From: Octopus vulgaris
Lineage: Eukaryota
Assembly: GCA_951406725.2 (NCBI GenBank)
Contig: OX597821.1
Coordinates: forward strand, 66,278,001 to 66,342,000
Direction of reading: 5' to 3'
DNA: 64,000 bases
Positions within the stretch are counted from its first letter, which is position 1. Each line of letters begins with the position of its first letter. Both the position numbers and the translations under genes were made by a program. Positions 59,287 to 63,586 of this stretch are shown in pieces. Below the pieces are notes generated by a model. The model had not been told where the DNA came from. It made no database searches and was given only the letters and a program-made list of their open reading frames with translations.

Positions 59287-59541
59287 TACGGAGATGTACT
59301 CGCATAGCAAGTAATTTGATCTGAGATCGTGTGCTGAAACGAAAACAATTGCAGCGTGGAAGGTGTTTATAAGCCATTTAAGAAACACACAAAAGCCGTT
59401 CGATTCACTTCAACATTTAAGTTTAATTTGTCAAAATATTTTCGTCGCTAAAATCCGCGACCTGTTCACTGACAAAGTCCGTGCTGCATCCTCATATATA
59501 CGCAGCACGGACTTTGCCAGTGAACAGGTCGCGGATTTTAG
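59287..59541. mobile_element. Family D fold-back: full left arm (minus), 14-nt spacer, truncated right arm
   Basis: Arm 59287-59487, spacer ATCCTCATATATAC, arm 59502-59541. G3-C8 hammerhead-like motif at 59427-59476 (minus). Confidence 0.9.
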
Positions 59542-59814
59542 GTGTGGTGGGGTAGTTTGCTGATTTGTTTGGGTATTCTAAAGAAAAATAAACGGAGGAT
59601 TCCAGCATTGCGACAAGTGATAGTAAAATGTTCATCAAAAATTCAGATTCATATGCGTGCGCATACCCACACACATACACACACGTACGCACACGCACAT
59701 GCTCATGTACGGAGCCCTACTTATCTTTAACTATCACACACACACACACACACACACACACACACACACACACACACACACACATATATATATATATATA
59801 AAATATATACATAT

Positions 59815-60620
59815 ATACGACAGGCTTCTTTCAGTTTCCGTCTACCAAATTCACTCACAAGGTTTTAATCGGCCCGAGGCTATAGTACAAGACACTTTCC
59901 CAAGCTGCCACGCAGTGGGACAAGTATGTATATATATATATACTGGTCCCACTGCGTATGTATATATATATATATATATATATGCTTAGCGCTATTTCGT
60001 CTGTTTTACGTTCTGAGTTCAAATTTCGCCGAGGTCAATTTGCCTTTGATTTTTTTCTGGGTCGATAGAATAAGTTCCAGTCGCGTACTGGAACTAATCG
60101 ACTGACCCCCTCCACCAAAATTTCGGGCCTTGTGCCTAGAGCAGAAAAAAAATATATGCTATATACACCACGTCATTTATAGAACTTTAAAAACTTGTTT
60201 CAGTCATTGGATTGCGGCCATGCTGGATCAGAGTATGATGAGTTTGGTCGATCTAATTCACATCAATAGTATTCTTATATTTTGTCTTTTATTGTCTTAC
60301 TTGTTTCAATCAGTTGACTGCGGCCATGGTGGAGCACCGCCTTAAGTCGAATAAATCGACCCCAGAACTTATTCTTTGTAAGCCTAGTATATATTTTATC
60401 GGTCTCTTTTGCCGAACCGCTAAAGTACAGGTACGTAAATTCACTAACATTGTTTGTGAAGCAATGGTGGGAGGACAAACACAGACACACAAATACATAT
60501 ATACATACATACATACATACACACATACACACACGCACACACACACACACACACACACATATATATATATATATATATATATATATATTTCAGTTTCCGT
60601 CAACCAGATCCACTCACAAT
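59815..60620. mobile_element. Cluster of SINE B (minus) and SINE A (plus, 59985-60145) fragments
   Basis: Match to the other copies in this window. Confidence 0.8.
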
Positions 60621-62295
60621 CCCGGAATCATACAGATGGAAATCAAGATTCTTTATTTCATTATATTGGCCATAAAGCCTTACACAGAGAAAGGAAGCTG
60701 CGGGCTGGACGTAGACATGATGTTATATGGAATGAAAATGATGATTAATGGGGGGAAAATGACGGCCACCGATCGATTTTTCCCGAGGACATTGATCTCT
60801 TGTATATTGTTCATGAGGCAACAAATCTCTACACTGTTCACAATATTTAATAACAAAAAGGAACTTTCAATAACACTGAAGCTGTTCAACCTCTTATCCA
60901 ATTCTACCGTTTGCGGCACAGTTCCCTTAACGTGAACCACTAACTTGGAAGACGGATACGCCCCCCCCCCCCCCCCGAAAAATTCTCACAATTAAGTGAG
61001 AAAAAATATCCGCTCCACTGCAGATAGACCAGAATTTAGAATCCAGTGAGGACTTCCTGCTTGTACAAAAAAAATATTGCCGCAAATAAAAACTCCCACT
61101 AGACCCCAAAAAATAAGAATCTTACCTTACAGCGGAGCTTCAAAATTTTTCAATTCAAGACGGCTTCAAAAGCACGTCTTCACCGCTTCAGTGCCAGACA
61201 CAACAGTGACGCACATGCGCAGAAGCACGCTTCTTACCACACATATATATGTCTTTTATAAACTCTGGTACTGATTCCATTGTTACATTTACACAAACAC
61301 AATGGGTTTCAATACTGTTTCTCTCTACCAAATTCACTCACAGGGTATTGCTCGGCCGGAGGAGATAGTAGAAAACACGTGCTTAAGGTGCCGCGTTGTG
61401 GGACTGAACATGAAACCACGGGCTTGAAATTCGGGTTCCTTAACCACACAACTGTGTCTACAAACAACTATACACTAATAATTCATAGAAATTGCCTCTA
61501 CACATAGACAGTCATATAACTGCGCCCACGTGTCCATACATATATTATATATCCTCATATATACATACATATACAAACACATATATATATGTGGGTATAT
61601 ATATATATATATATATATATATATATGCATATATATATACACGCACACACGTATATATATATATATATATATATATATATATATATATATATATATATAT
61701 ATATGTATATATATATATATATATATATATATATATATATATATATATATATATATATATATACATACACACACATATCTATATACATCTACGTATGAAC
61801 ATGCAGCCGACATTTTCTCATTTGCAGCTGATTGCTTGCATTTCCAATTCCAATGTACAAGCTACCAATCAGCATTATATATTTATCATTTATGAGAAAA
61901 CCCTGACCAGAGAAAACGGTCAGAAACAGGAACCGTAGCAATGCGTAGTCCGGAATGAATATAATTATTTCTACTATCAATTTTCATTATGCTACTCCTT
62001 TTCGTCCCTTACCTGTTTCCCTATATTCACTTTCATCCCCTTCTTGTTTAATAATAATCTCATTACCTCTTTTCTTGTTGTATATCACACGAATTTATAA
62101 AGCTGTCAAGGCTTCCATTTTAGATATACCAAATAAATACTGCAGCCTCTTATTCGTTTTGATAGCCTAAATATACAGTACGTTCATCGATCCAAGAACG
62201 TGTTTAATTCTCTCTCCTCATTTATCCCCCTCTCTTTTCCTCTCTCTGTTCCCTTTTCCTCTCTGTATCTCTTATTATATATATATATATATATA

Positions 62296-62682
62296 TACTC
62301 TTTTACTTGTTTCAGTCATTTGACTGTGGCCATGCTAGAGTAAATCGACCCCAGGACTTATTCTTTGTAAGCCTAGTACTTATTCTATCGGTCTCTTTTG
62401 CCGAACCGATAAGTTACGGGGACGTAAACACACCGGCATCGGTTGTTAAGCGATGTTGGGGGGACAAACACAGACACGCAAACATACACGCACGCACACA
62501 CACACACACACACACACACACAAATATATATACATCTATACCACGGGCTTCTTTCAGTTTCCGTCTACCAAATCAACTCACAAGGCTTTGGTCTCCCGAG
62601 GCTATAGTAGAAGACACTTGCCCAAGGTGCCACGCAGTGGGACTGAACCCGGAAGCTACTTACCACGCAGCCACTCCTACGC
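62296..62682 (-). mobile_element. SINE family B
   Basis: Colinear with 8480-8920, with small deletions. Confidence 0.9.
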
Positions 62683-62725
62683 ATATATATACATATATAT
62701 ATATATGTATATGGATACATATATA

Positions 62726-63036
62726 TCACCGTGATCACCGTGACCGACCAGGCTATCAGATGTTGCTCCTAATCGCTGGTCACAATGCGTTTCGCATAGT
62801 TTTAGCCATCAAATGACGCCACCCCGCTGGCTAAGCGAGCAGGCCAGAGAAAGCTGAAAGCGAGAGAAAGGTGTGGCGAAAGAGTACAGCAGGGATCACC
62901 ACCATCCCCTGCCGGAGCCTCGTGGAGCTTTAGGTGTTTTCGCTCAATAAACACTCACAACGCCCGGTTTGGGAATCGAAACCGCGGATCCACAACCGTG
63001 AGTCCGCTGCCCTAACCACTGGGCCATTGCACCTCC
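62726..63036 (-). mobile_element. SINE family C head with an alternative 3' module
   Basis: Head matches 19045. The tail (..TGTGACCAGCGA..CTGGTCGGTCACGGTGA) is unrelated to the 19290-19457 tail. Confidence 0.85.
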
Positions 63037-63227
63037 GGATATATATATATATATATATATATATATATATATATATATATATATATATATATATATATAT
63101 ATATATATATATATACATATATATATATATATATATATATATATATACATATATATATATATATATATGTATATATATATGTATATATATATATATATAT
63201 ATATATATATATATATATATATATATC

Positions 63228-63586
63228 ACAATTGCAGCGTGGAAGGTGTTTATAAGCCATTTAAGAAACACACAAAAGCCGTTCGATTCACTTCAACATT
63301 TAAGTTTAATTTGTCAAAATATTTTCGTCGCTAAAATCCGCGACCTGTTCACTGACAAAGTCCGTGCTGCATCCTCATATATACGCAGCACGGACTTTGC
63401 CAGTGAACAGGTCGCGGATTTTAGCGACGAAAATATTTTGACAAATTAAACTTAAATGATGAAGTGAATCGAACGGCTTTTGTGTGTTTCTTAAATGGCT
63501 TATAAACACCTTCCACGCTGCAATTGTTTTCGTTTCAGCACACGATCTCAGATCAAATTACTTGCTATGCGAGTACATCTCCGTAA
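63228..63586. mobile_element. Family D fold-back: truncated left arm, 14-nt spacer, full right arm, in (TA)n
   Basis: 63228-63370 pairs almost perfectly with 63385-63527. Hammerhead-like motifs at 63310-63359 (minus) and 63396-63445 (plus, one stem I mismatch). Confidence 0.92.

What the first reader, a model, noticed from the sequence alone, without database searches (positions are those of the whole stretch)
59287..63586. Family D: a young ~200-bp non-coding element that occurs as a single arm and as a ~415-bp palindrome with outward-facing G3-C8 hammerheads
Seen: a lone arm in (TA)n at 19733-19931, and two head-to-head fold-backs (59287-59541, 63228-63586) sharing the identical spacer ATCCTCATATATAC and the same T>C change in the right arm's stem I. 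Copies are nearly identical, so spread is recent. Inference: the palindrome was itself copied as a unit, by transposition or local duplication. It resembles the inverted pseudo-LTR arrangement of Penelope insertions reduced to a non-autonomous, retrozyme-like element. A read-through transcript would form 140-200 bp of dsRNA that competes with the ribozyme fold and would be a substrate for ADAR or Dicer. The UUU cleavage triplet is atypical, so activity is uncertain.
Basis: partly seen in the sequence, partly recalled or inferred. Interest (0 to 1): 0.75.

Follow-up and report, generated by a model that had tools for sequence, protein, structure and literature searches.

The report
Twin-primed Penelope retroelement stubs
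These mirror-image repeats are real, but they are the first 200 bases of a young Penelope-type jumping gene, with palindromes most likely built afresh at each landing site by copying one RNA onto both cut DNA strands; the two neighbours here share a joint probably through a local repair event, not because the palindrome jumps as a unit.

Summary
The sequences are as described, but the reading changes. The 204-nt arm is the end piece (pseudo-LTR plus tail) of a young Neptune-type Penelope-like retrotransposon. Full elements carry it before and after a ~1,070-aa RT + GIY-YIG ORF, whose first 31 codons lie inside the arm. At least 1,520 arms exist genome-wide. The palindrome is not a mobile unit. 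The shared junction occurs only at these two sites, while 165 head-to-head junctions with short, varied spacers exist. In 35 of 38 sampled pairs one arm ends at ~143 and the other at ~204; none is 204+204, so the 415-bp palindrome was never seen. This fits priming on both target strands at two RT start sites. The spacer matches host DNA at 61551, between the two sites, and P1 likely copied its right end from P2. The G3-C8/UUU hammerhead is conserved, with compensatory changes in a sister family; most copies come from uncut RNA, with a weak excess starting at the cut site. The architecture is published, and this scan reached the same reading on other DNA. Ordinary in kind, useful for mechanism.

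The parts
19733..19931 (+). Lone stub (arm positions 1-198) of a slightly different sub-lineage, inserted in (TA)n; hammerhead core at 19752
59284..59487 (-). P1 left arm: pseudo-LTR (1-143) + tail (144-204), identical to the commonest genomic form; complete hammerhead motif, core at 59469; ORF start codon at 59377
59488..59501 (+). P1 spacer: 3 nt from the element's RNA start (ATC) + 11 nt matching host DNA at 61554-61564
59502..59541 (+). P1 right stub (arm 1-40, with T16C), identical to the start of P2's right arm; incomplete hammerhead; joins unique host DNA with no target duplication; likely a repair copy of P2
61551..61564 (+). Host 14-mer identical to the spacer; likely template of the spacer
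   Evidence: 106 matches genome-wide; chance of one in this 3.7 kb about 1.4e-4
63228..63370 (-). P2 left arm: pseudo-LTR without tail (1-143); complete hammerhead motif, core at 63352
63371..63384 (+). P2 spacer, same 14-mer
63385..63588 (+). P2 right arm: pseudo-LTR + tail (1-204) with T16C (stem I mismatch) and T75A; ORF start codon at 63495

Best explanation
The arm is the 5' leader and ORF start of a young Neptune-type Penelope-like retrotransposon, and each head-to-head palindrome is most likely made anew at insertion, when both nicked target strands prime reverse transcription on the element's RNA. Shown: full elements run arm - ORF (RT, CX3CxxC linker, GIY-YIG) - ~1-kb 3' UTR - arm; insertions end at arm ~143 or ~204; inverted pairs have one end of each kind; short target duplications flank copies outside (TA)n. 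Inferred: the two ends are two internal RT start sites (about +33 and +94 of the ORF), one used on each target strand. RNA begins at the arm's first bases (TATA-like box at -30), so priming near the RNA's 5' end yields 143-204-nt stubs, and the two cDNA ends are joined with variable filler, sometimes copied from nearby host DNA. Locally, P2 is such an ordinary 143+204 insertion whose filler was likely copied from 61551; P1 is likely a later single-arm insertion whose free end used P2, 4 kb away, as repair template (about 60% for this order). The hammerhead is likely a real but weak, dimer- or protein-dependent ribozyme that transposition does not need.
For: Element anatomy: L065 ORF of 839 aa followed by the arm; L101 and L100 carry the arm directly before the ORF, with ATG at arm 111; GIY-YIG PF01541 E=1.6e-5; homologues labelled RT-domain protein. 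Copy number: 1,520 exact matches of an 18-nt 5' motif; 43 arm matches in 30 unselected loci average 98.8% identity. Fold-backs: 165 junctions against 2 for the reversed control, with varied spacers in the 50 listed; the window's junction only twice; 35 of 38 pairs are 143+204, 0 are 204+204 or 143+143. Single, unpaired copies also end at 143, so 143 is a start point by itself. In L064 and L098 the arms have different 5' truncations and the tail is on the shorter arm. Arms of one insertion share 28 variants against a mean of 3 (max 10) in 2,000 shuffles of 30 pairs. Host-templated filler recurs: L116 has 142 nt copied from about 1 kb away. Literature: inverted pLTR with tail at one end and ORF codons in the pLTR (PMC3846280, PMC8557442); in vitro cleavage and extension of both strands with two internal start sites bounding the tail (PMC11167929).
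Against: No biochemistry here. For short fold-backs, self-priming (snap-back) followed by a stop at 143 gives the same shared variants, and apex deletions could mimic unequal arms. 62 variants are unshared between arms, and some pairs have different 5' ends, which needs two RNAs or later change. PMC11167929 reports no difference in start site between strands, so the one-of-each rule is not explained by that paper. None of the long copies that I fetched has the whole ORF unbroken. The A+1 start also looks like a 3' splice site (branch-like CTAAC, pyrimidines, AG). The order P2 then P1 rests on parsimony only.
Confidence: 0.8

Rival explanations
1. Same element, but the inverted arm is made by self-priming: the first cDNA (or an antisense template) folds back and is copied, stopping at the pseudo-LTR boundary.
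For: Proposed for Adineta PLEs (PMC3846280, passage). Short self-copied pieces are common at 5' ends. Both arms share private variants.
Against: A cDNA primed at 143 cannot copy a tail; unpaired copies end at 143; long pairs have unequal, independently truncated arms with the tail on the shorter one (L064, L098).
Confidence: 0.15
2. The palindrome is a non-autonomous, retrozyme-like unit that transposes whole.
For: P1 and P2 share spacer and T16C. A read-through RNA from P1's minus strand, primed at 143, could have produced P2 (about 25% for this one local step).
Against: Junction found only at this locus; T16C only in these two arms among 146 motif matches in the loci held, duplicates included; spacers elsewhere differ; the 415-bp form is absent in 38 pairs; spacer matches local host DNA.
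Confidence: 0.04
3. An ordinary MITE (DNA transposon) inserted at TA.
For: Inverted structure, (TA)n targets.
Against: Variable target duplications of about 7-13 bp, one fixed and one ragged end, attachment to an RT + GIY-YIG ORF.
Confidence: 0.01
4. P1's right half is an assembly chimera of P2 sequence.
For: 197 bp identical within 4 kb; a contig of another DNA run joins different letters to the flank at 59542.
Against: That contig equally fits an empty allele; the break falls exactly at the stub's edge; P1's left arm has a tail that P2's left arm lacks.
Confidence: 0.08

Closest known systems
EN+ Penelope-like elements with inverted pLTR and optional tail (Adineta vaga Pen2a, PMC3846280; overview PMC8557442)
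   Same: Direct and inverted pLTRs, tail on one end only, first ORF codons inside pLTR and tail (there 12 and 22 aa, here 11 and 31), short target duplications, TATA + initiator-like motif, (TA)n bias, CX2-5CxxC linker of Neptune/Nematis.
   Different: Tail is ~61 nt rather than 30-40; far higher copy number, mostly stubs; clade placement here is by motifs, not by a tree.
PAc (Poseidon of Anolis carolinensis), PMC11167929
   Same: Insertion ends lie inside the ORF start; two end points bound the tail; AT-rich targets; hammerhead close to the start codon and apparently dispensable.
   Different: Other clade; natural G3-C8 core and UUU triplet here; ends at +33/+94, not about +111-118; genomic pairs show one end of each kind.
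Minimal type I hammerheads of metazoan PLEs (PMC4209133)
   Same: Extra base between 9 and 10.1, G10.1-C11.1, palindromic 15.2-16.2 and loop 3, pairs on opposite strands 100-700 bp apart.
   Different: That paper's read parts name a U3-A8 variant, not G3-C8; U17 is not discussed in the parts read.
Non-LTR retrozymes (bioRxiv 10.64898/2026.07.22.740005, abstract and introduction seen)
   Same: Short, hammerhead-bearing, derived from PLE pLTRs.
   Different: Defined by head-to-tail tandem units and circular RNAs; here copies are single or head-to-head and mostly begin upstream of the cut site.

Membership tests
EN+ Penelope-like element | Single ORF with RT and C-terminal GIY-YIG | tested here: met
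   YVDD, DKSG, YIGET motifs; PF01541 E=1.6e-5. Pfam RVT_1 did not hit this protein; homologues are labelled RT-domain.
EN+ Penelope-like element | Partial tandem forming pLTRs around the ORF | tested here: met
   L101, L100
EN+ Penelope-like element | Inverted 5'-truncated copy, tail at one end | tested here: met
   35 of 38 pairs
EN+ Penelope-like element | Hammerhead in the pLTR | tested here: met
   by my own descriptor. No Rfam hammerhead among the 150 best of 362 matches listed.
EN+ Penelope-like element | Short variable target duplication | tested here: met
   about 7-13 bp by eye in L016, L019, L029, L107, L108, L120, L173, L180; unreadable in (TA)n; absent at P1
Neptune clade | CX2-5CxxC linker before GIY-YIG | tested here: met
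   CQSNCAVC; shared with Nematis
Neptune clade | RT phylogeny with reference Neptune elements | not tested
Active hammerhead ribozyme | Core, stems I-II, covariation | tested here: met
   Sister family (34% N-terminal identity) has the motif upstream of its ORF with C3-G8 for G3-C8, A-U for G-C in stem II, G-C for A-U at 15.2-16.2, and U17 kept; it has C at position 9
Active hammerhead ribozyme | Self-cleavage | tested here: inconclusive
   29 copies start at the cut site against about 14 and 9 at two control sites (p=7e-4); indirect
Non-LTR retrozyme | Head-to-tail tandem units each with a hammerhead | tested here: not met
   no array of the 200-bp unit in the loci examined; not a full census
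Non-LTR retrozyme | Circular RNA | not testable with these tools
   no run on record as RNA
MITE | Symmetric terminal inverted repeats, fixed short target duplication, DDE partner | tested here: not met
   asymmetric 143/204 ends, variable duplications, RT partner; no DDE search was run

The most novel reading that the evidence does not exclude
This young family records the Penelope insertion reaction: one RNP primes both target strands, at two fixed start sites, one per strand, on RNA from one source; the cDNA ends mark the transcription start; filler is taken from DNA 1-2 kb away; and a natural G3-C8/UUU hammerhead cuts a few percent of templates in the animal. (TA)n targets might also supply a TATA box that lets lone stubs be transcribed again.
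Probability: 0.5. Interest if true: 0.5.

Novelty: new member of a known kind. Interest (0 to 1): 0.3.

Why it matters
How Penelope-like elements make inverted repeats with a one-sided tail is named as open in PMC8557442, and self-priming was the explanation offered in PMC3846280. A family with over 1,500 near-identical arms and a near-strict 143+204 rule gives exact predictions for an in vitro test and a natural G3-C8/UUU hammerhead to assay. The fold-backs could also be a recurring source of ~143-bp dsRNA in a host that is likely an octopus, though transcription is untested. The locus itself is ordinary apart from a neat case of local template use.

Tried and rejected
Rfam scan of the window: no hammerhead family in the 150 rows listed, only microsatellite-driven miRNA matches. 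Generic repeat finder swamped by microsatellites. Expression: no RNA holder listed; contigs of four guessed-RNA runs gave no splice-like joint at the arm start and cannot show starts. On window 59290-59660 none of four runs covered 59498-59536; a hole proves nothing. Segmental duplication of P1/P2 rejected: no shared flanks. No other part of the element or its ORF lies in the window or the next 9 kb. Apparent compensatory stem II changes in L085 are all CpG-type transitions and were not counted. One row of alignment A1 was a wrong stretch and was ignored. The (TA)n tally and ORF-length line were flawed and not used; ORF length is my own count. Most short spacers tested (12 of 14) had no match in the 1.5-kb flanks beyond chance length. 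L178's 42-nt flank match was not resolved as filler or deletion. The paper on dimeric PLE hammerhead variants (PMC5785218) was not held, so whether G3-C8/UUU variants were already assayed is open. Literature searches: Penelope + twin priming + pLTR gave 0 papers; octopus + Penelope + hammerhead listed no description of this family; repeat databases and supplements were not seen and may hold it.

Full report
1. Observation. Arm positions count from the G of GCAGCAC. The window holds a lone arm at 19733-~19931, P1 (full arm on the minus strand 59487-59284, 14-nt spacer, 40-nt stub to 59541) and P2 (positions 1-143 on the minus strand 63370-63228, same spacer, full arm 63385-63588). Both right arms carry T16C; P2's also T75A. 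P1 and P2 share 197 bp at 100% and no flank. Neither is a 415-bp palindrome. The hammerhead motif (7-bp stem I, G3-C8 core, extra G, 5-bp stem II, palindromic AATATT, U17) is complete in three arms. Stems I and II are the minimum-energy fold for the normal arm (z -1.8 and -2.1, modest) and stem I is lost with T16C. P2 read through folds into a 143-bp duplex with two mismatches.

2. What the arm belongs to. The genome (2.8 Gb; likely an octopus, from the best named protein hit) gave 1,151 candidates for the arm and 1,520 exact matches of an 18-nt 5' motif. Four of the first 30 loci had a common upstream sequence. [quoted passage not shown] L101 and L100 also have the arm directly before the ORF, whose ATG is at arm position 111; the ORF is about 1,070 aa by my count across copies. 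None of the long copies fetched has it unbroken from end to end, though L098 is open for about 1,000 codons. So the arm is pseudo-LTR (1-143, 11 codons) plus tail (144-204, 31 codons in all), as in Adineta Pen2a (PMC3846280, passages). Neptune placement rests on the linker motif (PMC8557442, passages and section 15), not on a tree.

3. The palindrome is not the mobile unit. The 30-nt junction occurs twice in the genome, both here. A pattern for any head-to-head joint with up to 18 nt between gave 165 sites against 2 for the reversed control; the 50 listed have varied spacers, only the simplest recurring. Among 38 distinct pairs in the loci held, 35 end at ~143 on one side and ~204 on the other; the exceptions are P1 (204+40), L002 (119, abutting other repeat sequence) and L047 (internal deletion, tail present). 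The sample is not random: it comes from best-hit and first-listed loci. Copies outside (TA)n show duplications of about 7-13 bp, read by eye.

4. Mechanism. PMC11167929 (main text read) shows a PLE protein cutting and extending both target strands, with two start sites inside the ORF that bound the tail. I infer that here 143 and 204 are those sites, one used per strand. Support: unpaired copies end at either site; long pairs have unequal, separately truncated arms, with the tail on the shorter arm in L064 and L098; arms of one insertion share 28 variants against a mean of 3 in shuffled pairs (30 pairs), so both come from one source. Against: 62 variants are unshared, snap-back is not excluded for short pairs, and that paper saw no strand difference in start sites. 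Of the first 100 of 717 listed 5' ends (counted by eye), 31 continue into the 3' UTR and 69 stop within a few bases of the arm start. Of 33 that keep AGAT, 22 have G before it where the element has T (7 of these could be self-copied); a script on the first 30 gave 11 read-through, 7 GAGAT, 4 other AGAT, 8 others. A TATATA lies at -30 from that A. This suggests a transcription start with a cap-derived or untemplated G. The same spot resembles a splice acceptor, and the D. virilis intron ends at the hammerhead's helix I (PMC4209133, results read; PMC2377424, passages), so this stays open.

5. The local story. The spacer 14-mer occurs 106 times genome-wide, three within these 4 kb; a third by chance in the 3.7-kb interval has probability about 1.4e-4. 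L116 shows the same thing on a larger scale, with 142 nt of filler copied from about 1 kb away; 12 of 14 spacers tested showed no such match within 1.5 kb. P2 is canonical (143+204, (TA)n on both sides). P1 lacks a partner arm and a target duplication, and its right 54 nt equal P2's. The simplest order is P2 first, with filler from 61551, then P1 repaired on P2 (about 60%); P2 from a P1 read-through RNA (about 25%), one compound event or an assembly chimera remain. A contig from a public DNA run matches the flank from 59542 on but not in its first 31 letters, a weak hint of an allele without P1.

6. The hammerhead. A sister family (34% identity at the N-terminus, many 1,312-aa frames) has the motif 135 nt before its ATG, against 92 here, with three double-sided changes (3-8, a stem II pair, 15.2-16.2), U17 kept and C at position 9. 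So U17 is a lineage trait, not decay. C3G/G8C partly restores cleavage in PAc (PMC11167929), and minimal PLE hammerheads are weak and dimer-dependent (PMC4209133; PMC6765202, passages). Most copies begin well before the cut site, so cleavage is not required. Of 49 copies with a foreign base just before the cut site I dropped 9 point mutants, 5 internal rearrangements and 6 stem I microhomology joints; 29 remain, against about 14 of 86 and 9 of 59 rows at two control sites, p=7e-4. With two controls and sorting by eye this is suggestive only.

7. Known or new. Inverted pLTR, one-sided tail, ORF codons in the pLTR, opposite-strand hammerhead pairs and (TA)n bias are published (PMC8557442, PMC3846280, PMC4209133). 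Retrozymes as PLE derivatives are proposed in bioRxiv 10.64898/2026.07.22.740005 (abstract, introduction and part of methods seen), but need tandem units not seen here. My searches found no paper stating twin priming for PLE pLTRs and no description of this family; supplements and repeat databases were not seen. Earlier notes of this scan, read after my analysis, reach the same reading on other DNA; they are not independent support, and a look-up by sequence found nothing.

Noticed in passing
G000 loci L154-L166 (e.g. L161): Sister PLE family with many intact-looking 1,312-aa frames and a C3-G8 hammerhead with C at position 9 and a CUU triplet; more full-length copies than the family studied here.
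   Followed up: partly
window 19550-19610: A second, unrelated C3-G8 hammerhead-like motif (core at 19566) just upstream of the lone arm, probably the pLTR of another PLE family.
   Followed up: no
window 20029-20373: Open frame of 115 aa that by eye resembles the end of a GIY-YIG nuclease of another PLE family; no Pfam hit and no similarity to the studied ORF.
   Followed up: partly
L116:1520-1663: 144-nt filler between the two arms, 142 nt of it copied from host DNA about 1 kb away.
   Followed up: yes
window 10168-10813: Tandem array of 19 copies of a 34-nt unit.
   Followed up: no
window 57090-57435 and 58168-58520: Inverted pair (85%) of an abundant SINE-like repeat family that has many copies in the window.
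   Followed up: no
L014 and L015: Two arm insertions 13.6 kb apart with the same flanks: a segmental duplication or assembly duplicate.
   Followed up: no
G000 C32:630063-630102 and C7:24901934-24901996: Fold-backs in which arms start at the predicted hammerhead cut site.
   Followed up: partly
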